Below are positions 4,368 through 18,824 of a DNA stretch of 64,000 nucleotides, one piece after another. The translations under genes and the position numbers were made by a program. Source of the DNA: the human T2T-CHM13v2.0 reference genome, Homo sapiens; assembly GCF_009914755.1 (NCBI RefSeq), contig NC_060934.1; one strand, 5' to 3'. The number at the start of each line of letters is the position of its first letter. Within the stretch, counting starts at the first letter, position 1. A model generated the notes under the pieces. It had not been told where the DNA came from. It saw only the letters and a list, made by a program, of their open reading frames with translations, and searched no databases.

Positions 4368-4452
4368 GGTGGGTATTCTGCTCCCTCCTTCTCTCCTTGG
4401 CAGGGCTCCTTCCAGGGGATCCCACGGACTGTTCCACCGCACCGCAGACAGA
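4368..4452 (+). CDS. CCSER2: CCSER2 85-nt cassette exon (3n+1) encoding GGYSAPSFSPWQGSFQGIPRTVPPHRRQ plus 1 nt
   Basis: Pyrimidine tract and acceptor ctccctaccccatctctctctgcacag| (AG 4366-4367); donor AGA|gtgagt at 4453. Open in phase 0, and the leftover A joins CC at 18006 to continue as T-SSTTAFQQPS...KATTYRGPQ*, which matches my recollection of the short CCSER2 C-terminus. TGCATG at 4513 and 4620 downstream. Confidence 0.85.
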
Positions 4453-5609
4453 GTGAGTCTGTGTCTCTCACTCCTATCCTGCTCTGGCTTCCCCTTCATG
4501 GTATTTCCCTTCTGCATGACCTGTTCCTCCCCAGCACCTCCTTTTCTATCCTGAGTGCTCTGCAGGCATCTGCTAAAGCAGCACTCTCTGTGGTCTCCTC
4601 TCTTAACACTTCCTTTTACTGCATGTAAACAGACCTCTACTTAGAGCCTTATGGAAGCTGTCTGAGGTTAATTTCATTCTAATACTGTTTAAACCTATTG
4701 CCAGTGACCCTAGACCTACTGACATGCATCTGTCTTTAATGCATTTTCAAAACCTTGAAATATGTGAATAAAAATTGTTGTGTTATCTAATTGTTTTAAA
4801 AAGTGTACATGTGATCTACAATGGTATGATGGACAGATGCATAATGTGTGGGGAGCAGGCTTACTAGACCATTGCACATTTCTTTAAATAATATTTCCTA
4901 ATTAAGGGCTTGGATTGCATTTCACTGTCATCTAAAATAAAGATATTTCTAATTGTTTTTTCTAAAAGTGGTTTAAAACAACTAAGATGTTTTTGTAATT
5001 TATCAGCTTTACAGCACAGAAGAAATGGCTTTTGAATATGCATGGTTTACTAACATTTCTAATGATTTAGTTACTGTTTGACCTTAAAATTTTTGTTTAT
5101 GTTAAATCTCTTTTCCAAAACAGTGTGGGTTATTTTGTTTTATGTACTTAAGTATGCCTGGTAAGTTGGTTATATTTTATCTTTTTTGAAAAGTCACCCA
5201 TAAAAAGCTATTATTAATGAAAATGAAGTGTAAATACAGTCAATCAGAGGTATTTTTATGCCTTCTCCAAGGATTTATCATGATTTGTGATTCATTCAAT
5301 TTTTTCATTATCCATTTCCATGTGAAGTATCAAAGGTGTCAAAGGAGGAAATTTTAAGCAATTAGGAATGTGATTTATTTAAAGAAAATTTTATTTCTTG
5401 AATTAGCCAAAATTATGAGGTATCGACATGAATTCCAGAGAAGGCATGAAGTTTATTTTTTGGCTGCTACACCTCTCCTTCCCTTCTGTACTTTTTGTTT
5501 TAAAGAAAAATCGTTTCTGTAGGCTTTTATGTGATGTTCTTTAGTAGCAAGTTCGTTTGTTTACTGGAAGCAATGAGAAAAGGAGTTTTTTTGTCCTCCT
5601 CCTTTTCTA

Positions 5610-5663
5610 TCTCCCACCACCTTGGTAACTCCTCCTTCTCCCACCACCTTGGTAACTCCTCCT
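5610..5663. repeat. Perfect 27-bp tandem duplication
   Basis: tctcccaccaccttggtaactcctcct at 5610-5636 and 5637-5663. Confidence 0.95.
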
Positions 5664-6313
5664 TTTCACTTCTCTCGTCTTCAAGTAAGTTGCTTTCTTT
5701 TCTCCTCTATTTAAATAATCCCAGCACAAAAAGAATCATACTAAAATGCTAGTCAAGTCATCTGAAATTTCAAAGGGCAGATACAACAAATTATATGTTC
5801 TTAGGCTTGTGGCCAGTAAACAGCAAGGTTTGAGATTTCCCCTCAGATTAGCACACCCACCTGTGTACTTACTCAAGCCCCCTTTTAGCCTGTATCCTTT
5901 TTTGTCACCATGTTCCTCCCCCTTTCTCCTTCTCCTCAGCTAGCTGTAATACGGAATTGAAGTTTGGGATTAATTATTCTGTATTACAAATAGAGTTTCA
6001 GCTTTACTTTTAAAAACATGTTTATCAGAAATACCCATTTCATTGGTTTATTTGTATAGCATTAGAATTTTCTTGTCTTTTCCTTGAGTCAGTGGCTCTC
6101 CATTTTCAAGTGCTTCTTCTCCTTCCTTCTTGGGTTCAGAGCTTTCCTTTTTGTTTCCAACTGTGAAGCAGCACTATCCTACAATTCCTACAATACTAGT
6201 AAGACCTGCTTTTTTTTTTTTTTAAACCTTTCTAGATCAAAACTTCTTTGCATCTTCAGATTAACAAAAAGAAAGTTTTGGTTCTCCAGAGTTTGGATGT
6301 ATTAGTCATCTAG

Positions 6314-6319
6314 GGAAAA

Positions 6320-6363
<44 letters not shown>

Positions 6364-6419
6364 TCATATATATACTCATATATATATATATATATATATA
6401 CTCATATATATATATATAT
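6314..6419. repeat. poly-A followed by (TA)n microsatellite with TACTCA interruptions
   Basis: Directly visible. Confidence 0.95.
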
Positions 6420-6818
6420 GAGTCTTTTCCTGAGTAGGTTCTCACGGCCTGTGCATCTAAAAGCACTGGCCCTAGGATTTGATCTTTGAGACTTGTAGGT
6501 CCCTGTTTGTGCGAAGTAATGACCAGAGGGCCTGTTCACAGCCTTTTAATAACTATTAATGAGCTTGAAAGGTTCCTTTAGAGGGGAAATATACTCTAAA
6601 CTACTACTCTATTTTGAATTCACCCTGAGAACAGCTAAAGCAGTTTACTAATAAAGGGTTTTTTTTTAGTTATAAAATATAGAAAAGAAAGGTATGAAAT
6701 TATTAGAATAAATCTAGTGGTTTTCCAGAGGGTTTTGAAACAGATCTCTTCTTTTCCTATACTAAACTTGTAGTCAGATGATACTTGTCTCCACATTTAA
6801 TCAATATGTGGGTCCTAG

Positions 6819-7213
<395 letters not shown>

Positions 7214-7486
7214 TCTTTGATGACTTCTTGAACATCAGCTTGAGGGAACTGCCTTTATCCTCTAAATGGGGAGGCGAGGTAAAGCTTGGCTGTGAGTCTT
7301 CAGTAACAGCAGTTTGTTGTTTTTTAAGTTACGGAAGTATAGTAGACCTTCTAGTATGAAGATAGTCCGTTCTAAATATGCAGAGTGAGATAATTAATGT
7401 TTACAGGGAGTATTTAGCCCTCGTCACTCTAGAAAGCTGTAGTGGCCAGCAGTGTTCAAACTGCGTTGAAGAATATAGGAAAATAG

Positions 7487-7779
7487 GCGAGGCGCGGTGG
7501 CTCACGCCTGTAATCCCAGCACTTTGTGGGGCCGAGGCAGGCGGATCACGAGGTCAGGAGATCGAGACCATCCTGGTTAACACGGTGAAACCGCATCTCT
7601 ACTAAAAATACGAAAAATTAGCGGGGCGTGGTGGCGGGTGCCTGTAGTCCCAGTTAGCTACTCTGGAGGCTGAGGCAGGAGAATGGCGTGAACCCATGAG
7701 GCGGAGCTTGCCGTGAGCCAGATCGCACCACTGTACTCCGGCCTGGGCAACAGAGTGAGACTCTGTCTCAAAAAAAAAG
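7487..7779 (+). mobile_element. Alu (AluY-like)
   Basis: Sense Alu; TSD aagaatataggaaaata. Confidence 0.95.
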
Positions 7780-10700
7780 AATATAGGAAAATAGAGATAA
7801 ATGGAAGGTTCTGGCCTTTATTATTTTTCCTTCTCAGGAAATTTTGACTTACATTTCTTAAGTATATTACTAGTCTCTACTTCATGATACTTTTTTATTT
7901 CAAATTAAATTTTCTCTAGGTTAGCAGAAAATATCTACATTTAGGTCTTTCCTGCTGTTAGTAGGGATTTGAGCTTTTGTACAAATTCACTTAACTGGCA
8001 TTGGTGTAGTCTTTCTACTCTAATTTCCAACTGTGTAAAATTGGGAGTAATAAATAACCTACCTCAGAGTAGGAAAATTTAATAAAAATAATTGTTTTTG
8101 GCAAATAGAAAGCCTTCCTGGTAATTCCAAATAGCATTTCTTGCCAGAGCATGTACTTACAGGAATACTTGACTTTTCAAAAAGTATGTTTCGAAATAAT
8201 ACCTATTTCTTACTGTGTCTAACTAAGCTTTTAAAACTTGCTCTTTAGTACCTGGCTTGATAAATTTAGAAATCCTATTTATTTTTACCTTCCATGTGCA
8301 GTGACTTAATGCGAAGGGAAAAAGTTCTTTTAAAACAATAAAAATTACATAAATGCATCTATATTTGTCGTAATAGCCTGACAGTTTCTTGATGTAGTGT
8401 TGTGTCCACCATAATTATATTAAGAATGACAAATTTATATTGTCTTACATCTTCTTTCTCTTACAAATTTCAGGGGGTGTTTCACAAACATTTTTGACAT
8501 GCAGTGATTATAAATTTATTTTACATGACAGCCCAGTATACATTTACTGAGAGAAAGTATGTATTTACAACAACCTGATTCACTGTGTATGTATATTTAA
8601 AATTCTGATAAAAGATTCATGGGACAATACTTTCTCTTAAAATATTTGATCCTCTCATATTTTTTCTCTCTATTCTGTTTTTTTAAATGTTGCTAGCAAC
8701 CTGCAGTTAAAAAACATTGGTCTATTTTGCCCATATAAATATGAGCATTTAGGTTTTAATATACTGACTTTAAATATGAAGGCTAAGAAGTGTAGATAAT
8801 TTAATGTGCATAGATTTTGTGTGTATAATCAAAGTAAAGCTTTTTTTTTTTTTTGCAGAAATACTGTTTTTAAGTGGTGCCTCCTAAGAATTGTCTATGG
8901 CAGGAAAAAATGTTTATTGTTGAATATTAATAGAGTGGCTTAAATGGCTGATGAGCCCTTTGTAAGAGCCAGCTTTTCCTCAGTTTAACCAAAACGTTGA
9001 TCTTACTGAATGCCCACCTTTGCCATTTGCCTGCTTATCCTCGACTGCACTGTCTCAGTTTAGTAATTCACTGTACTTATTCTTTTAGTCCTTTTGGCTG
9101 GAGAATTGTTCTCTTGAAATTCATACAGTTGGATAATCTTTCTAAGAGCTACTTAAAAATTACACTTTCACAAATATTCCTATAGGAAACTCTTATGTAT
9201 ATTTTTAAAAATTTAGCCATACATTTTAAGAAAGGGGAAAAGACTAATATTAATTGAATACCTATTATGTGTTTTAATGTCTTAAGTACTTTTCTGGGCA
9301 TTTCATTTAAATTATTTGATTCTCACAACAACTCAGAGCCAGAGATATTATTCCAATTTTATAATAAGGAAGATGCAAATAAATCATAAATAAATCAATA
9401 AATGATGTAGTAATTTGCTCAGGGTAAGTGAACAAACCATAATTAAATTCTGTTCTACTTCCAGAGTCTGAACCTTAAATATTTTTTGTAAATACAATGA
9501 CTCTTCCTTCAAAATGTACATTTGTCCTATTTATAATAGTAATGTAGTGACTCATTATGGAGGAATTAGAAGAAACATTTTGGTATATTTCCTTTCAGTC
9601 TTTTAAATATTATGTTATAAAGTTGAATTTATGTATTTTCAGTCGTTCTGCTTTTTTCACATAGTATCATTTTATATATATACACACATTTTTATATGGT
9701 AAATATTTCTTGAAATTAACATTTTAATGGCCACTTGATAATGCATTATGTGGATATATTCTAAATTAATTTTTTTCTATTGGGCATTAATGTCGTTTCT
9801 AGTTACAGAGAGGAATATTGGTAAGCAGTTTATCTTTGTGTATAAATCAGTGTCAGTGTCTCTCTTTTCTTAGATTTCCTGGAAGGATATCATTTAATTA
9901 AAGGGTATACACTTTCTAAGGCCACTTGATGTGTCAAATGTGTATTTGACAATTGTTGAATTGTCAAACATGCTCATAATGTATAAATTAACAAGGCTCA
10001 ATCTGATTGACTCTAATGTGTGACTATAATCAATTTTATACATAAGAATAGCTTCAGCTTCCTTAGAAATTAGCTCTGGGAGTGACTTTTCATAAAAATA
10101 AAATATTTTTGAATGAAATGCAAACTAGAGTAACTCAGTAAAAAAACTTTACTAATTCAATTTCGTGTATGCTCATTTTTAATTTAAATATGGTTAACAT
10201 CAAATATGGTATTTTGTACCTTTTCGCAGCCAATTTCAAGGACTATCTAGTATAGTCATTGGTTAAATGACTAGAAATGTGCATCTAACTCATGGTCCAA
10301 TAGGCCTTCCACAAACGTAGGCATGGGTTAGTTTCTTGGAATTATGAGAAGTGCAGCGTTAGTGGTTTCTGTATAAAGCCTTTTATTACAATCTGCTTTG
10401 CAGCTTGTGGGATTTTTTTTAGCCAGTCTTTTTTCTGTACCATAATGCTTACAGTATTCTTGTACTCTGGATAAATATACTGTGTCTATTGATCACATCA
10501 ATGGAACTGTACTATTATGATGCCATTTAGGTTTTTTTTCCTGAACTACTCTACATCATCTGAGAGGTAGATGTTAATGGATTCTGTGTCTTTGAGATAT
10601 AGACCCACGAAATTAATCATCTAAGAGTGATTGTGCCTCTGTAGTAAATGCTTACTTAAGTCCCTCTTAATCACTTTGATACTTAAAAAAAAAAAAACCA

Positions 10701-11055
10701 AACCCGTTAACTGGTCATCAACTTAGAAAAGCCATTGAACTCTTTATTTCAGAAATTATTTTTAAACAATTTATATTATCAATCTGCTATCCTCTAAATT
10801 TTCTGAGGTCTAGAGGCACCATTTTGAGATACAGAGGAATAAGAGCATTCCTTTTTCCCAAAAAGCACTGGAAGCTGTGATTGGCTTCATGTGATCTCTA
10901 AAGCGAAAGTCTTTAAATCTAGTTGTAATACAGTATTAGGGATACAAATTAAGTCTTTCTATACTGATGTGCAGAGCCTCACTTATAATTTGCATCATAT
11001 TCAGGTTAAGATCAGATTATACCTTTAGTGGTCTTCAATGGCAATAATTAAACTG

Positions 11056-11342
11056 GCCGGGCGTGGTGGCTCACGCCTGTGATCCCAGCACTTTGGGAGG
11101 CCAAGGTGGGTGGATCACAAAGTCAGGAGTTCGAGACCAGTCTGGCCAACATAGTGAAACCCCGTCTCTACTAAAAATACAAAAAAATTAGCCGGGCATG
11201 GTGGCAGGCGCCTGTAATCCCATCTATTTGGGAGGCTGAGGCAAGGAGAATCGCTTGAACCTGGGAGGTGGAGGCTGCATTGAGCCAAGATTGCACTACT
11301 GCACTCCAGCCTGGGCAATAGTGCAAGACTCCATCTCAAAAA

Positions 11343-11385
<43 letters not shown>

Positions 11386-11387
11386 AT
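11056..11387 (+). mobile_element. Alu (AluS-like) with (AAAT)n tail
   Basis: ggccgggcgtggtggctcacgcc... ending in an (aaat)n microsatellite. Confidence 0.95.
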
Positions 11388-11852
11388 CTAACACTTATTT
11401 AATCTTATAATATGCAGAAGCCTCTGAAATTACTTAAAAATTCATTTCTACCTCCTTCATAAGAGGTTACTTGGGACTAAAACTTTTTAGGTATTTGGAG
11501 TATGAATATTAAATTTTATCAGAATTACTTTCAATATTTTGTTTGGTAAGAGTCTTCAAGTGATTCCTCTTAAGTGTGTGTGAGAAGTTTTACACATGCC
11601 TTTCTGAGGTTATGAGTATTTGTACTAACTCGCAAATTACTTTAGTAAGAAAGTATAAATCTATTTAATGTTTTTGTTATGTACAAATATATTAAATGAA
11701 ATAATGAATAATGCCTAGGAAAACACAACAATAGCAAAGCAAATACTTGTGGCTGCCACCCAGTCATGGCAATCCTTGGTGTTGTGTGTGGTCTCTGATG
11801 CCATTGTCCTGTCTTTTTCTTGTCTCTGCTCTCCCATTATGCCATTGGCAAG

Positions 11853-11862
11853 GAGTTGAGAA
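11853..11862 (+). CDS. CCSER2: Candidate 10-nt microexon GAGTTGAGAA (3n+1)
   Basis: AG at 11851-11852 follows an AG-free stretch (11764-11850) containing a CTGAT branch candidate (11795-11799), a pyrimidine tract and TGC motifs. Donor GAA|gttagt at 11863. Four (T)GCATG at 11964, 11971, 11985, 12000. Inferred from motif architecture only. Confidence 0.5.
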
Positions 11863-14800
11863 GTTAGTCCATTACTTCTCTGACAAAGCGTGGTACAGTA
11901 CAATTTCGGATTTTTTCCTACCACCTTCCTCATAATCACTTTTTTTGGTTTTTTTTTCCAGTTTGCATGATGCATGTCAGAGCCTGCATGAAAGTACAGG
12001 CATGTTACAGATGGCTCTATTTCCACCTTCCTTTTTATGGTTAAAATGTATTTAATAATAACAATAAACTTGTATGTACCCAGGAAAAAAATTAGCTAAA
12101 TTCTGTGTCTGTTATGCAGTAGCATTATTACACTTTAGAACATTTCCTGCTTTCTATTTGGTGCACTTTGACATATTTTTACTCCATCAGGACTTGACAT
12201 TTTAGCTGCCATCTTTTGCTAATAACCCTAGAACAAGAATGCTTATGAAAACTGGCATGAGTGCTTTTCCGTATGCTAATGCTGTAGATCTTTGAAGTGT
12301 CGTAAAACAGTAAAGGTGAACTGTTTTGCTCATTGGTGGGTACTACTTTGCCTTTTTTCATGTTCATTATGTTTCCCCCAATGGGTCACTGTGGAATCAC
12401 CTCTTTCCAGAAATACTGCTCCACACTGTGGCTTGAGTTTAGTATCTGAAAGTTATCCTGGGTAGGCTAGATCATCTAAGAAGGAAATAGGACATTATCC
12501 AGGAAAGTTAGTTCCTTAATATTGGTATTATATCTGCCTGTAGTGTTTTAAAATATATTAAAATAATCATCTGGTTATACTGTATATTCTGAAAGCCTGT
12601 GAACTCATCAGAACTAACCAAATTGCACAGAATATTAAATTTTAGTGCTGTATTTTAAGAAATTATCTGATGGTTCAAATTCTGGCTTTGCCACTTGCCA
12701 AAATGTTTGAATTTGAACACGTTAACATTTTTTAACCCCAGTTTACTCATTTATAGAAAGAAAAGAACAGTATGTTTCACCTAGGGGTCTCATGGTAACT
12801 AGAGATCATGCATGCAGACTCAAGAGTTTGAATCTATACCCTTGGAAAGAAGGGAACGCTGTTCTCTAAGAGCCCAGAGTATGACATTTCTCAGGTGTTT
12901 ATGTGTCAGGCATTGTACTGTTACTGGTTATTATTTGCAACAATTCCATGAAGTATATATACTGGTATTACCCTCATTTTGTAAATTATGAAATTCCATT
13001 TCAGGGTAGTGGGATTATTTTTACCCAATATCTCACCTCAGTGATAGATCTATAAGTGATAGAGCCAGGATTCAAACTCAGATCAGCCTGATTGTAAAAG
13101 CTAAGTGACTCAGTATTGTGTTGTACTACCTCCTTTGTAGAGAGAAGAAAGTTCTCTCTAAACTTGCATGTCTTTGCTCTGGTTCTTATCTCCAGGAAGG
13201 CAGTTAAAGATCCTTGACTTCTGTGTCATATTAAATATGCTTGATGTGGATTCAAAACTTATAGATAGTGTTGACATTATTGAACTATGTATTTGAAGCC
13301 TAGCAACCTCATATTCTAGTTTATTATTATATTGCTAAAGAACTTGCTTTTGTTTCGAAGACCCAGTTACAAAATAGCTATGACTTGAACTCATCATTCT
13401 TATATGCTTTAATAATCATAGAAGAAATTTATTGAGGACATACTATGTGCTAGGAAGTCCTATGCTAAATGTTTTACATATGTTGTCATATTTAATTATT
13501 AGAATTTTCTAGTAGCTGAATGCTTGTTAAGATACTTTCCCCAACCTATTTCTAGTCTTCAGATAAAAAACATTTGGTGGCTAAGATTTTAAAAGGTCAT
13601 TATGAGAGGTACTTATGTATAACATGCTTGTGTATAACATGCAGTCAGTATTTCCTGCTATCCTTCTAAACATGAATCATTAAGCTAACCAGACTTATTT
13701 GGAGGGAACAATTGTTTTTTCCTATTAGATTATTTTTCATCAGTGTTTATTTTTTGAAACTAGTTTTTATTTAATCATTAATGCTTCATCATTGACCTAA
13801 ATCACTTTGGTAATTCTTGGCCAAATAAGTAATTCTTGAATATACCACTAATATTTATTTATTCACTTATTCATTTATCTAGCAAATGTATATTTAATCC
13901 CTACTTTGTGCCAAATAATAGAAATACCAACTATAACGAAAAATGAATAAAGCATGGTACATGCCTGAAAGGAGCTCCAAGTCTTTGGCTATCTTTGTAA
14001 AGCAGCCTAAAATAGACATTTACAATTATCATTAAAGATGTCTACCAAGCCTTTGCACAACCCCCCTGTAGTGCCTATTGCTGACATTATTGAACTTGAC
14101 GCATGGAACTCTTTAATCTGAGAATTATCAGAATGGTGTGCTGAAGTTTACATGTATAACTAAAGTAAGACTTGAAGTTGCTGAGTTCAGTTAGAGGCAC
14201 TTAGCTCTGTAAGTCTGGGGATAGGTCCTCATTTTGATGCTTCAGTAACCAAGCCCTCCACAAGTTTCAGGATTAAAGTTTTACTCATTTGTGACTATAG
14301 GGAGTAGTTAAGATATGAGATCTTTCGTAGTGGGGGGATTCCTTTTGCCCTCTAGGTTTTGTGGGCTTCCGAGGCTATGAAATCCATCGATTAGCGGAAA
14401 GCCTTCCCAAAGGCCTTTTTTGGATACAAGCCAATACCTCATCTTGCCTGTCCCCTTCAAATCTTTTTCAGTCCTCTCCAGATTTTATGCCAAATAGCTT
14501 GTGATATGGTTTTTCTGACAATTTCGTCCCCACTGGTTACATTCCTCACTGGTTCCACTGGAGTGATCATTCTAAAACACACACATTAGATATTCTGATT
14601 CCTCTTCTTAAAATTCATCTATATCTCCCATCATCTACAGCACAAAGTCATAGCTACTTAGCCTGACATGAGTCCTAGGAGCTGGCCCTTAGCTATGCTT
14701 TTGCACTATCCTTTCAAATTCAGTCTAAAATTTGAAGTGACCAGAACATGGCATGTTCTTTTTTTGCCTCTGTGTTTGGCGTGTACTAGCTCATTACACA

Positions 14801-18005: not shown

Positions 18006-18100
18006 CCTCAAGTACTACAGCCTTCCAGCAGCCTTCCCAGACCCACAGATCACACCCAGGGAAAACTAATAAAGCCACAACGTATCGAGGCCCGCAGTGA
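18006..18100 (+). CDS. CCSER2: CCSER2 terminal exon, short frame (phase 1): (T)SSTTAFQQPSQTHRSHPGKTNKATTYRGPQ*
   Basis: Frame entered after a 3n+1 cassette; TGA at 18098-18100; peptide recalled as the end of the shorter CCSER2 isoform. Confidence 0.8.
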
Positions 18101-18824
18101 ATGCTCAATCCAAGACATGCATCAGGGCGGTGCACATCCGGAAGAAAGCTTTACACACGTCTTGCACCAAGAAAGCAACTATGGTTTGGAAGAGCAGCCT
18201 TTTTCATCAGGCCCACAATTAACAATGGATGTGGCTAAGAGTACACCTTCTGAAGCAAACTTAAACATTACTGTAAATGCTCAAGAGCCTTATCATTTGG
18301 CAAACAATCAAATTAGTGACATGCAGTTTATACCCACTTCTCTTCAGACACCTCCCGAGTCAAGTACAGTAGACCAGGCTAAGAGAGTTGGAAGAAATCA
18401 GTCTCCGCCAGTGGGTTATATGTCTCAGCCCAAGTCCTTGCAGCTTTTAAAGCCATCCATATTGAGTTCTTTGGTACCGCCTCCAGTTTCTGAATCATCT
18501 CCAAGTAGGACTCCCACTTGTAAAAAGTCACCAATAATCACAACATGTAATTCAGCAAAACTTCAGCCAACATCTAGTCAAACAAATCTTGCAAATAATC
18601 AGAATCTGAAAGCATCTAAGCTCCGCCCCCCCTCAGGCTCTTTCAAACAAAAACAAACAAACAGCCCCCAACTAGAGCCTCAAAGCTTCCAGGCCAAGAC
18701 AAGCATCCCAAGGCCACTAACACAACGAAAAGAAATCATGCAGAATCCAAATGGCAATTTGCATTCTGGGGATTGTTTGGCCTCTAATCGATATTCTCGT
18801 CTTCCTAAACCAAAGATACATTAA
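18006..18824 (+). CDS. CCSER2: CCSER2 terminal exon, long frame (phase 0): 272 aa PQVLQPSSSLPRP...KTSIPRP...YSRLPKPKIH*, S/P/Q/T-rich tail with SxIP-type motifs
   Basis: Acceptor gttgtttttaattttaacag| at 18005. The 235-aa ORF 18117-18824 extends in frame (37 codons) back to the acceptor. Stop TAA 18822-18824. Motifs SSLP 18027-18038, TSIP 18699-18710, SRLP 18795-18806. Confidence 0.88.
   Translation, partial: PQVLQPSSSLPRPTDHTQGKLIKPQRIEARSECSIQDMHQGGAHPEESFTHVLHQESNYGLEEQPFSSGPQLTMDVAKSTPSEANLNITVNAQEPYHLANNQISDMQFIPTSLQTPPESSTVDQAKRVGRNQSPPVGYMSQPKSLQLLKPSILSSLVPPPVSESSPSRTPTCKKSPIITTCNSAKLQPTSSQTNLANNQNLKASKLRPPSGSFKQKQTNSPQLEPQSFQAKTSIPRPLTQRKEIMQNPNGNLHSGDCLASNRYSRLPKPKIH

What the first reader, a model, noticed from the sequence alone, without database searches (positions are those of the whole stretch)
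11760..12010. Hidden 10-nt neural-type microexon (GAGTTGAGAA), a second frame-shifting key for the same terminal exon
Seen: ~87-nt AG-free zone, CTGAT branch candidate, pyrimidine tract, TGC motifs just before the AG, several YCAY (11764, 11801, 11834, 11842, 11869), a gttagt donor, and four (T)GCATG within 41 nt starting ~100 nt downstream. A perfect TACTAAC lies at 11623. Established: UGC near the 3' splice site (SRRM3/4), downstream UGCAUG (RBFOX) and YCAY (NOVA) are the signature of neuronal microexons, and most of those preserve frame. Inference: this one does not. Alone it gives ELR-TSSTTAF...GPQ* (short frame, no SxIP). It is invisible to the ORF track and would be easily missed by aligners.
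Basis: partly seen in the sequence, partly recalled or inferred. Interest (0 to 1): 0.8.

Follow-up and report, generated by a model that had tools for sequence, protein, structure and literature searches.

The report
Known 40-base brain exon of CCSER2

Summary
The acceptor (AG at 11851-11852) is the acceptor of RefSeq exon 11853-11892, a 40-nt alternative penultimate exon of CCSER2 whose donor is at 11892/11893, not 11862/11863. The exon is not hidden. It is in the list of 145 GTEx brain-specific micro-exons of Li et al. 2015. It is also in a table of exons changed in RBPMS2-null human cardiomyocytes. The four GCATG in 41 nt, 71 nt past the annotated donor, are the only such cluster in the 64 kb (0 of 200 simulations) and fit an RBFOX enhancer. 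The frame-shifting idea holds. Together with the 85-nt exon 4368-4452 it opens the third frame of the terminal exon, a triple-coding arrangement already in print. I found no support for the 10-nt form: it is absent from the hub's RefSeq exon list and from 310 novel micro-exons mined from 428 GTEx samples, and its predicted U1 pairing is poor. Without reads I cannot exclude low-level use. Verdict: already known, low interest.

The parts
11764..11850 (+). AG-exclusion zone (87 nt) with the pyrimidine-rich tract and a branch-point candidate (CTGAT 11795-11799, A at 11798, 54 nt before the AG). TCTT/TCTCT (PTB-like) words at 11792, 11812, 11818, 11823. TGC at 11827 and 11840.
   Evidence: 75% pyrimidines in 11800-11850. 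The roles of the branch point and of the PTB, SRRM4 and NOVA motifs are inferred, not tested.
11851..11852 (+).
   Evidence: context. The hub's RefSeq table gives an exon starting at 11853.
11853..11892 (+). The real feature: a 40-nt alternative penultimate (cassette) exon of CCSER2. A brain-specific micro-exon by the 51-nt-or-less definition.
   Evidence: RefSeq exon 11853-11892 (hub table). Li et al. 2015 Supplemental File 2: chr10:86267049-86267089 +, 40 nt, FAM190B. PMC9770155 Table S7: hg38 10:84507294-84507333 +, 40 nt, exon 16 of 17.
11853..11862 (+). No support found.
   Evidence: sequence. Absent from the hub's RefSeq exon list, from Li et al. Supplemental File 1 and from the files searched.
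11863..11868 (+). GTTAGT, the candidate alternative donor. In the annotated exon it is exonic and holds the in-frame TAG (11865-11867) that ends the phase-0 reading after four codons.
   Evidence: The stop ends 25 nt before the last exon junction.
11893..11900 (+). Annotated donor (GTG|GTACAGTA). It is poor in the canonical register, but 8 base pairs with the U1 5' end are predicted if C(+4) is bulged.
   Evidence: dG -6.4 kcal/mol, top 4.8% of 3509 GT sites. One-nucleotide bulge registers are validated in print.
11964..12004 (+). Cluster of three TGCATG and one GGCATG, 71-111 nt downstream of the annotated donor. Candidate RBFOX intronic splicing enhancer.
   Evidence: only such cluster in the window; 0 of 200 simulations. 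Li et al. report RBFOX CLIP density in the 3' flanks of their 145 brain-specific micro-exons as a class. Binding at this exon was not seen by me.
4368..4452 (+). Partner 85-nt alternative exon (also annotated as 133 nt to 4500; a 49-nt form from an inner acceptor at 4404). It is the first frame-shifting exon. Alone it gives the frame +1 tail; together with the 40-nt exon it gives frame +2.
   Evidence: Hub table. Mouse Gcap14 has cassettes of the same 85 and 133 nt.
18006..18824 (+). Coding part of the terminal exon, read in three frames. Frame 0 is 272 aa with the SxIP-type motifs. The frame reached after one +1 exon stops at 18098-18100. The frame reached after two +1 exons stops at 18067-18069.
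   Evidence: Triple coding of this exon is in print. SxIP function is in print.

Best explanation
The feature is the annotated 40-nt alternative penultimate exon of CCSER2 (11853-11892). It is a brain-enriched micro-exon that switches the protein's C-terminus.

Shown by sequence and annotation: it has a weak AAG acceptor behind an 87-nt AG-free pyrimidine-rich zone. Its donor is weak in the canonical register. It is 1 mod 3 in length.

Inferred mechanism:
- Inclusion is activated in neurons, and to some degree in muscle or heart, by RBFOX proteins binding the four (U)GCAUG 71-111 nt downstream.
- U1 recognises the donor GUACAGUA in a register with C(+4) bulged.
- The pyrimidine and UCUU words upstream may give PTBP1 repression elsewhere.

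Consequences read from the sequence:
- Spliced alone between the constitutive exon and the terminal exon (phase 0), the exon adds four codons and a TAG. The 272-residue tail with the EB1-binding SxIP motifs is then removed. The stop ends 25 nt before the last junction, so by the 50-55-nt rule the mRNA should escape nonsense-mediated decay.
- Spliced together with the 85-nt (or 133-nt) exon, the two +1 shifts add up and the terminal exon is read in its third frame for 21 codons.

Its 'gttagt' is most likely an unused or rarely used internal GT.
For: - RefSeq exon 11853-11892 (hub table).
- The same 40-nt exon is in the list of 145 micro-exons with median PSI of at least 25 in GTEx brain and an 80th percentile of at most 10 elsewhere (Li et al. 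2015, Supplemental File 2).
- The same exon, at hg38 coordinates offset from the hg19 ones by one constant, is among exons changed in RBPMS2-null hiPSC-cardiomyocytes.
- The GCATG cluster is unique in the window: 0 of 200 simulations reach it.
- Li et al. report higher RBFOX CLIP density in the 3' flanks of these brain-specific micro-exons as a class, and weaker 3' splice sites for RBFOX-activated micro-exons.
- Predicted U1 duplex: annotated donor -6.4 kcal/mol with 8 bp and one bulge, equal to the 85-nt exon's donor (-6.5). Candidate donor -1.7, no better than 61.8% of all 3509 GT sites.
- One-nucleotide bulge registers are experimentally validated.
- Translations of the splice combinations. 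SxIP-type matches occur only in frame 0, and SxIP regions are needed for plus-end tracking.
- A 2026 preprint states that the CCSER2 terminal exon is read in three frames, all with peptide support and conserved across jawed vertebrates.
- A GT scoring at least as well as the candidate on the PWM is expected 0.21 times in any 40 nt, so its presence inside the exon needs no special explanation.
Against: - I saw no reads, CLIP data or alignments of other species. RBFOX, PTBP1 and U1-bulge steps are inferred.
- A position weight matrix that I recalled (approximate) ranks the candidate donor above the annotated one: top 9.7% against top 28.8% of GT sites.
- A U at +3 can pair with pseudouridine in U1 (abstract seen). 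ViennaRNA does not model this, so the candidate donor may be better than -1.7 suggests.
- The orthology tool used in PMC9770155 found no zebrafish counterpart for the 40-nt exon ('NO_CLUSTER', 'UNCLEAR_D'). This sits uneasily with conservation of the third frame across jawed vertebrates if that frame depends on this exon.
- That only combinations with this exon reach the third frame is my inference from the exons annotated in this window. Events upstream of the window could also shift the frame.
- Which of the two outcomes (early stop or third frame) dominates in brain is unknown.
Confidence: 0.85

Rival explanations
1. In some neurons the GTTAGT at 11863 is used as the donor, giving a 10-nt SRRM3/4- and RBFOX-dependent microexon. 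Alone, it shifts the terminal exon into the frame +1 tail (stop at 18098-18100), the same tail the 85-nt exon opens.
For: - AG and GT flank the 10 nt.
- GTTAGT matches the consensus at +4 to +6, and the recalled PWM puts it in the top 9.7% of GT sites, above the annotated donor.
- U-pseudouridine pairing can support +3U donors.
- TGC lies 12 and 25 nt before the AG.
- The 10-nt and 40-nt forms differ by 30 nt, so both are compatible with the third-frame route.
- Aligners do miss such short exons (Li et al., legend of Supplementary Figure 3).
Against: - The hub's list of exons from the 18 RefSeq transcripts has no exon ending at 11862.
- It is not among the 310 novel 6-51-nt micro-exons found by an insertion-based search of 428 GTEx brain, muscle and nerve samples. 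No FAM190B, CCSER2 or KIAA1128 name and no coordinate of this region appears in that file.
- No CCSER2 event of class MIC appears in the 12 of 18 files searched from a VastDB-based study.
- No hit by gene name in the MicroExonator (7 files, mouse) or VastDB atlas supplements. These tables may use other identifiers or list only selected events, so this is weak.
- A at -1 and U at +3 both mismatch U1, and the predicted duplex is -1.7 kcal/mol and out of register.
- The TGC and YCAY counts are within chance.
Confidence: 0.06
2. The GCATG cluster is not an RBFOX enhancer of this exon. It would be a chance or otherwise functional element (for example part of a decoy 3' splice site after the long T-run at 11941-11961, or a DNA-level element), and brain specificity would come from other factors such as relief of PTBP1 repression or SRRM4.
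For: - No CLIP or knock-down result for this exon was seen.
- PTB-like TCTT/TCTCT words lie in the upstream tract.
- The exon also responds to loss of RBPMS2 in cardiomyocytes, and two CAC words lie downstream at 11922 and 11937.
- A strong acceptor-like T-run plus CAG abuts the cluster.
Against: - Four GCATG in 41 nt is the only such cluster in 64 kb and is never reached in 200 simulations.
- It lies 71-111 nt downstream of a weak donor of a brain-specific micro-exon, the position where RBFOX binding was reported to be enriched and activating for this class.
Confidence: 0.12
3. The 40-nt exon is splicing noise or a non-productive 'poison' exon without a protein-level role. Its in-frame TAG would simply inactivate a share of transcripts.
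For: - Alone it introduces a stop after four codons.
- Li et al. note that up to 22% of alternative micro-exons may introduce in-frame stops.
- No zebrafish ortholog was assigned.
Against: - The published list requires a median PSI of at least 25 in GTEx brain and near-absence elsewhere, which is regulated, not noisy.
- The stop ends 25 nt before the last junction, inside the 50-55-nt zone that does not trigger nonsense-mediated decay (established rule, recalled).
- The preprint reports peptides and purifying selection for all three frames of the terminal exon. From the exons annotated in this window, the third frame is reached only through this exon.
Confidence: 0.07

Closest known systems
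Brain-specific micro-exons of 51 nt or less regulated by RBFOX and PTBP1 (Li et al. 2015, Genome Res, PMC4317164)
   Same: This exon is itself entry chr10:86267049-86267089 (40 nt, FAM190B) of their list of 145. It has the class features: very short, a weak 3' splice site, and a downstream GCAUG cluster.
   Different: Nothing differs for the 40-nt exon.
SRRM4/nSR100 (eMIC)-dependent neuronal microexons of 3-27 nt (Irimia et al. 2014; recalled, paper not held)
   Same: UGC close to the 3' splice site, neural inclusion, and flanking RBFOX motifs.
   Different: The annotated exon is 40 nt, outside the 3-27-nt class, and it shifts the frame whereas most of that class preserve it. SRRM4 dependence was not tested. 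The TGC count is not above chance.
Triple-coding terminal exons such as SH2B1 and CCSER2 (bioRxiv 10.64898/2026.05.28.727796)
   Same: The preprint already describes the CCSER2 last exon as read in three frames, all conserved and with peptide support. My translations show how the 85-nt and 40-nt exons select the frames.
   Different: The passages I read do not give exon lengths or the splice-regulatory motifs.
ARL6 13-nt micro-exon that changes the C-terminus by frameshift (cited in Li et al. 2015)
   Same: A tiny, tissue-specific, penultimate, non-symmetric exon that swaps the C-terminal tail.
   Different: In CCSER2 the exon alone ends the protein inside the exon. A new tail arises only in combination with a second shifting exon.
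5' splice sites recognised by U1 with a bulged nucleotide (Roca et al. 2012, seen only as a reference entry; Tan et al. 2016, PMC4856993, passages seen)
   Same: GUACAGUA gives 8 contiguous U1 pairs if C(+4) is bulged.
   Different: This is only a thermodynamic prediction. This donor was not shown to me in their lists.

Membership tests
Annotated CCSER2 cassette exon 11853-11892 | Canonical AG...GT flanks at the annotated borders | tested here: met
   caag|GAGTTG ... GCGTG|gtacag
Annotated CCSER2 cassette exon 11853-11892 | Seen as an exon in independent transcript-based resources | tested here: met
   Hub RefSeq table; Li et al. 2015 Supplemental File 2; PMC9770155 Table S7. The hg19 and hg38 places differ by one constant offset. 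The intron to the 85-nt exon is 66 nt longer in this assembly, and microsatellites in it are a plausible cause.
Brain-specific micro-exon (Li et al. 2015 definition) | Internal exon of 51 nt or less | tested here: met
   40 nt
Brain-specific micro-exon (Li et al. 2015 definition) | Median PSI of at least 25 in GTEx brain and 80th percentile of at most 10 in other tissues | not testable with these tools
   Taken from the published list and its stated thresholds. No reads were seen here.
RBFOX-activated exon | (U)GCAUG in the downstream intron within a few hundred nt | tested here: met
   Three TGCATG and one GGCATG at 11964-12004, 71-111 nt after the donor. 0 of 200 simulations reach 4 in 41 nt.
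RBFOX-activated exon | RBFOX CLIP signal on the motifs and loss of inclusion on RBFOX depletion; motif conservation | not testable with these tools
   No CLIP, knock-down or vertebrate alignment data were available. The Rbfox target paper was not held.
SRRM3/4-dependent neuronal microexon (3-27 nt) | Length 3-27 nt | tested here: not met
   The annotated exon is 40 nt. Only the unsupported 10-nt form would qualify.
SRRM3/4-dependent neuronal microexon (3-27 nt) | UGC-containing enhancer just upstream of the AG | tested here: inconclusive
   TGC at 11827 and 11840, but 8.2% of all 30-nt windows hold 2 or more TGC.
SRRM3/4-dependent neuronal microexon (3-27 nt) | Response to SRRM4 loss or gain | not testable with these tools
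   No CCSER2 MIC event in the 12 of 18 files searched of PMC7935315. Irimia 2014 was not held.
NOVA-regulated exon | YCAY cluster near the exon | tested here: inconclusive
   5 YCAY in 110 nt is reached by 4.6% of windows; 3 in 49 nt by 5.0%.
Bulged-register 5' splice site | More base pairs or a lower free energy with U1 when one nucleotide is bulged than in the canonical register | tested here: met
   GGUA-C-AGUA pairs with UACUUACC, -6.4 kcal/mol. The canonical PWM rank is poor (28.8%). In silico only.
Stop codon that escapes nonsense-mediated decay | Stop less than about 50-55 nt upstream of the last exon-exon junction | tested here: met
   TAG at 11865-11867 ends 25 nt before the exon end at 11892. 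The rule itself is recalled.

The most novel reading that the evidence does not exclude
Besides the annotated donor, the internal GTTAGT (11863) is a regulated alternative 5' splice site in particular neuron types. It would turn the 40-nt stop-carrying exon into a 10-nt read-through microexon. One acceptor would then offer two outcomes, truncation or the frame +1 tail, without needing the 85-nt exon. This would be a fourth route through a terminal exon already known to be triple-coding.
Probability: 0.06. Interest if true: 0.4.

Novelty: already known. Interest (0 to 1): 0.15.

Why it matters
CCSER2 (Gcap14) is a microtubule plus-end-tracking partner of NDEL1 and dynein with roles in neurodevelopment. 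Its EB1-binding SxIP motifs lie only in frame 0 of the last exon. The 85-nt and 40-nt exons therefore decide whether the brain makes a plus-end-tracking form, a truncated form, or forms with two other short tails. That logic is biologically interesting, but it is already annotated and in print.

This check adds the following. It ties the published brain micro-exon to its likely RBFOX enhancer. It offers a bulged-U1 explanation for the odd donor. It also shows that a reader working from raw sequence can find a true acceptor yet pick the wrong one of two nearby GTs.

Tried and rejected
- Full-text search for CCSER2 together with microexon gave 0 papers. FAM190B with splicing gave 11 papers, none of whose listed titles or abstracts concerns this exon (listing only).
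- Irimia et al. 2014 and Weyn-Vanhentenryck et al. 2014 are not held. VastDB neural-microexon tables and Rbfox target tables could therefore not be checked.
- MicroExonator supplements (7 files) and the VastDB atlas supplements (8 files listed, two not read) gave no hit by gene name. This is uninformative, since they may use coordinates or list selected events only.
- Mouse cortex data (PMC5989265) list Gcap14 cassettes of 80, 85 and 133 nt. They also list a 'novel, coding, under selection' cassette (CA-sr-chr14r-2100, PSI about 0.85 falling to about 0.68) whose coordinates I could not see. Whether it is the mouse 40-nt exon is open.
- PMC7935315 listed only a 49-nt CCSER2 event.
- Retrocopy test. 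A chr9 processed pseudogene (82% identity) joins the last constitutive exon directly to the terminal exon, with no 85-, 40- or 10-nt exon. This reflects a germline canonical mRNA and says nothing about neurons.
- TACTAAC at 11623 was rejected as the branch point, because 7 AGs intervene.
- Donor scoring gave conflicting ranks: the recalled PWM favours the candidate and the U1 duplex energy favours the annotated donor. Neither is decisive. MaxEntScan and SpliceAI were not available.
- No Rfam family lies in 11300-12500.
- The region 11780-12010 is single-copy in the genome.
- Protein, structure and prokaryote-collection tools were not used, because they do not bear on a human intronic splice element.
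Full report
OBSERVATION.
- GAGTTGAGAA occurs once in the window, at 11853-11862.
- It is preceded by AG at 11851-11852 and an AG-free stretch of exactly 87 nt, 11764-11850.
- CTGAT is at 11795, and TGC at 11827 and 11840.
- YCAY is at 11764, 11801, 11834, 11842 and 11869.
- gttagt follows at 11863.
- TGCATG is at 11964, 11971 and 11985, and GCATG at 12000, all within 41 nt.
- TACTAAC is at 11623.

Against chance, the GCATG cluster stands out. It is the only place in the 64 kb with three or more GCATG in 60 nt. None of 200 first-order Markov simulations reached four in 41 nt, and 9 reached three. AG-free gaps of 87 nt or more are 19 of 4301.

The YCAY and TGC counts are unremarkable: they are reached by 4.6% and 8.2% of equally long windows. 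TACTAAC cannot serve this acceptor, because seven AGs lie between them.

WHAT IT IS. The hub's RefSeq table lists an exon 11853-11892 in other CCSER2 transcripts.

The same 40-nt exon appears twice in print.
- As chr10:86267049-86267089 (+, 40 nt, FAM190B, hg19) it is in Supplemental File 2 of Li et al. 2015. The main text defines that file as the complete list of 145 micro-exons with median PSI of at least 25 in GTEx brain and an 80th percentile of at most 10 in other tissues.
- As hg38 10:84507294-84507333 (40 nt, exon 16 of 17) it is in Table S7 of PMC9770155. There it is listed with the 85-nt exon 10:84499875-84499959 as changed ('UP') in RBPMS2-null hiPSC-cardiomyocytes.

The hg19 and hg38 places differ by one constant offset. 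The intron between the two exons is 66 nt longer in this assembly than in hg38. Several microsatellites in that intron ((AT)43, T21, (AAAT)12) could account for this (inference). So the exon is neither hidden nor new. By the 51-nt-or-less definition it is a published brain-specific micro-exon.

THE 10-NT VERSION. I found no support for a donor at 11862/11863.
- The hub's list of exons from the 18 RefSeq transcripts has no exon ending there.
- Li et al. searched 307 brain, 74 muscle and 47 nerve GTEx samples for 3-51-nt insertions at annotated exon junctions and reported 310 novel micro-exons. That file holds no FAM190B, CCSER2 or KIAA1128 name and no coordinate of this region. A caveat: a read with the 10-nt form might have been aligned to the 40-nt-containing cDNA as a deletion and so missed.
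- A VastDB-based study lists for CCSER2 only a 49-nt event, in the 12 of 18 files searched.
- Two other supplements gave no hit by gene name, which is uninformative.

Sequence-based scoring is equivocal. A donor weight matrix that I recalled (approximate) ranks the candidate in the top 9.7% of the 3509 GT sites of the window, and the annotated donor only in the top 28.8%. Free energies of pairing with the U1 5' end say the opposite.
- The annotated donor forms eight contiguous pairs if C(+4) is bulged: -6.4 kcal/mol, top 4.8%. This is as good as the 85-nt exon's canonical donor at -6.5.
- The candidate reaches only -1.7 in an off-register pairing, a value that 61.8% of GT sites equal or beat.

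One-nucleotide bulge registers are experimentally validated. The same paper notes that U-pseudouridine pairs can help some donors, which would favour the candidate's +3U and is not modelled by my calculation. A GT scoring as well as the candidate on the matrix is expected 0.21 times in any 40 nt, so its presence inside the exon needs no explanation.

HOW IT MOST LIKELY WORKS. Shown: the exon is 1 mod 3, has a weak AAG acceptor behind a pyrimidine-rich AG-exclusion zone, has a donor that is weak in the canonical register, and has four (U)GCAUG 71-111 nt downstream.

Inferred:
- RBFOX proteins bind that cluster and promote inclusion in neurons. Li et al. report RBFOX CLIP density in the 3' flanks of this class and weaker 3' splice sites among RBFOX-activated micro-exons.
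- U1 uses the bulged register.
- TCTT/TCTCT words upstream may give PTBP1 repression outside the brain.

Consequences follow from translation. The terminal exon's coding part (18006-18824) is 273 codons including the stop, so the exon before it is entered in phase 0.
- The 40-nt exon alone adds four codons and stops at TAG 11865-11867.
- The stop ends 25 nt before the last junction. By the 50-55-nt rule (recalled) it should not trigger nonsense-mediated decay. A protein lacking the 272-residue tail is therefore expected.
- That tail carries the only SxIP-type matches, at residues 8, 232 and 264 of the exon's frame-0 reading; there are none in the other two frames. Deleting both SxIP-motif regions abolished microtubule binding in an overexpression study, and deleting either one reduced the plus-end comets.
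- With the 85-nt or 133-nt exon (4368-4452 or 4368-4500, each also 1 mod 3), the two shifts add up. The terminal exon is then read in its third frame, to a stop at 18067-18069.
- The 85-nt exon alone gives the other short frame, with a stop at 18098-18100.

A 2026 preprint states that this exon of CCSER2 is read in three frames, all with peptide support, all conserved across jawed vertebrates and all under purifying selection. It also states that CCSER2 has brain-specific transcripts (passages read; its supplements are closed). From the exons annotated in this window, the third frame is reachable only through the 40-nt exon. That is my inference, and events upstream of the window could add routes.

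One discordant note: the orthology tool in PMC9770155 matched the 85-nt exon to an 82-nt zebrafish exon (also 1 mod 3) but found no counterpart for the 40-nt exon.

Its solo product is a truncation, not the frame +1 tail.

OTHER CHECKS.
- The region 11780-12010 is single-copy in the genome.
- No Rfam family matches 11300-12500.
- A processed pseudogene on chr9 (82% identity over 825 nt) joins five consecutive CCSER2 exons to the terminal exon exactly at its first base, without any of the alternative exons. This confirms the exon border at 18006 and the canonical junction, but it says nothing about neurons.
- Mouse cortex tables list Gcap14 cassettes of the same 85 and 133 nt. They also list one novel cassette whose place I could not read.

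COMPARISON AND NOVELTY. The feature is a member of the published set of brain-specific micro-exons of Li et al. It works like RBFOX-activated exons: the motif criterion is met, and binding and response are untested. It fails the length criterion of the 3-27-nt SRRM4 microexon class. It belongs to the triple-coding arrangement already described for CCSER2.

Novelty: already known. The only open, mildly novel possibility is regulated use of the inner GTTAGT donor, which I put at about 6%.

VERDICT. The finding is explained by an annotated and published exon. Interest 0.15.

Noticed in passing
L003 (G000:C9:114690171-114693975); match at C9:114691070-114692475 and on to about L003:2833: A processed pseudogene of CCSER2 on chromosome 9, about 82% identical. 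It joins five consecutive chr10 exons and the terminal exon at exact exon borders, with the canonical junction (no 85-, 40- or 10-nt exon).
   Followed up: partly
window 4368-4452, inner acceptor at 4403/4404: The 85-nt alternative exon contains an internal pyrimidine tract plus CAG. A VastDB event (HsaEX0024309, hg38 chr10:84499911-84499959, 49 nt) uses it. 49 nt is also 1 mod 3, so it is an in-frame 12-codon-shorter form of the same frame-shifting exon. The hub table does not list this form.
   Followed up: partly
window 11905-11961: A T-rich stretch (T6 at 11911-11916, then T7-GG-T9-CCAG ending at 11961) lies between the 40-nt exon's donor and the GCATG cluster. It looks like a strong 3' splice site only 69 nt from the donor, or like a U-rich (TIA1/PTB-type) element. 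No exon is annotated there.
   Followed up: no
window 11922 and 11937: Two CAC words 15 nt apart lie downstream of the exon. The exon is listed as changed in RBPMS2-null cardiomyocytes, and RBPMS proteins are said to bind tandem CAC (recalled). Two CAC words are not remarkable in themselves.
   Followed up: no
window 4453-11852 (intron): The intron is 66 nt longer in this assembly than implied by the hg38 coordinates in PMC9770155. Length-variable microsatellites (AT)43 at 6328-6419, T21 at 6911-6931 and (AAAT)12 at 11340-11387 are candidates for the difference.
   Followed up: partly
mouse Gcap14, PMC5989265 Dataset S5, row 991: A cassette exon not previously annotated (CA-sr-chr14r-2100), labelled coding and under selection. 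Its PSI is about 0.85 in embryonic cortex, falling to about 0.68 in adult. Its coordinates were not visible, so it may or may not be the mouse counterpart of the 40-nt exon.
   Followed up: partly
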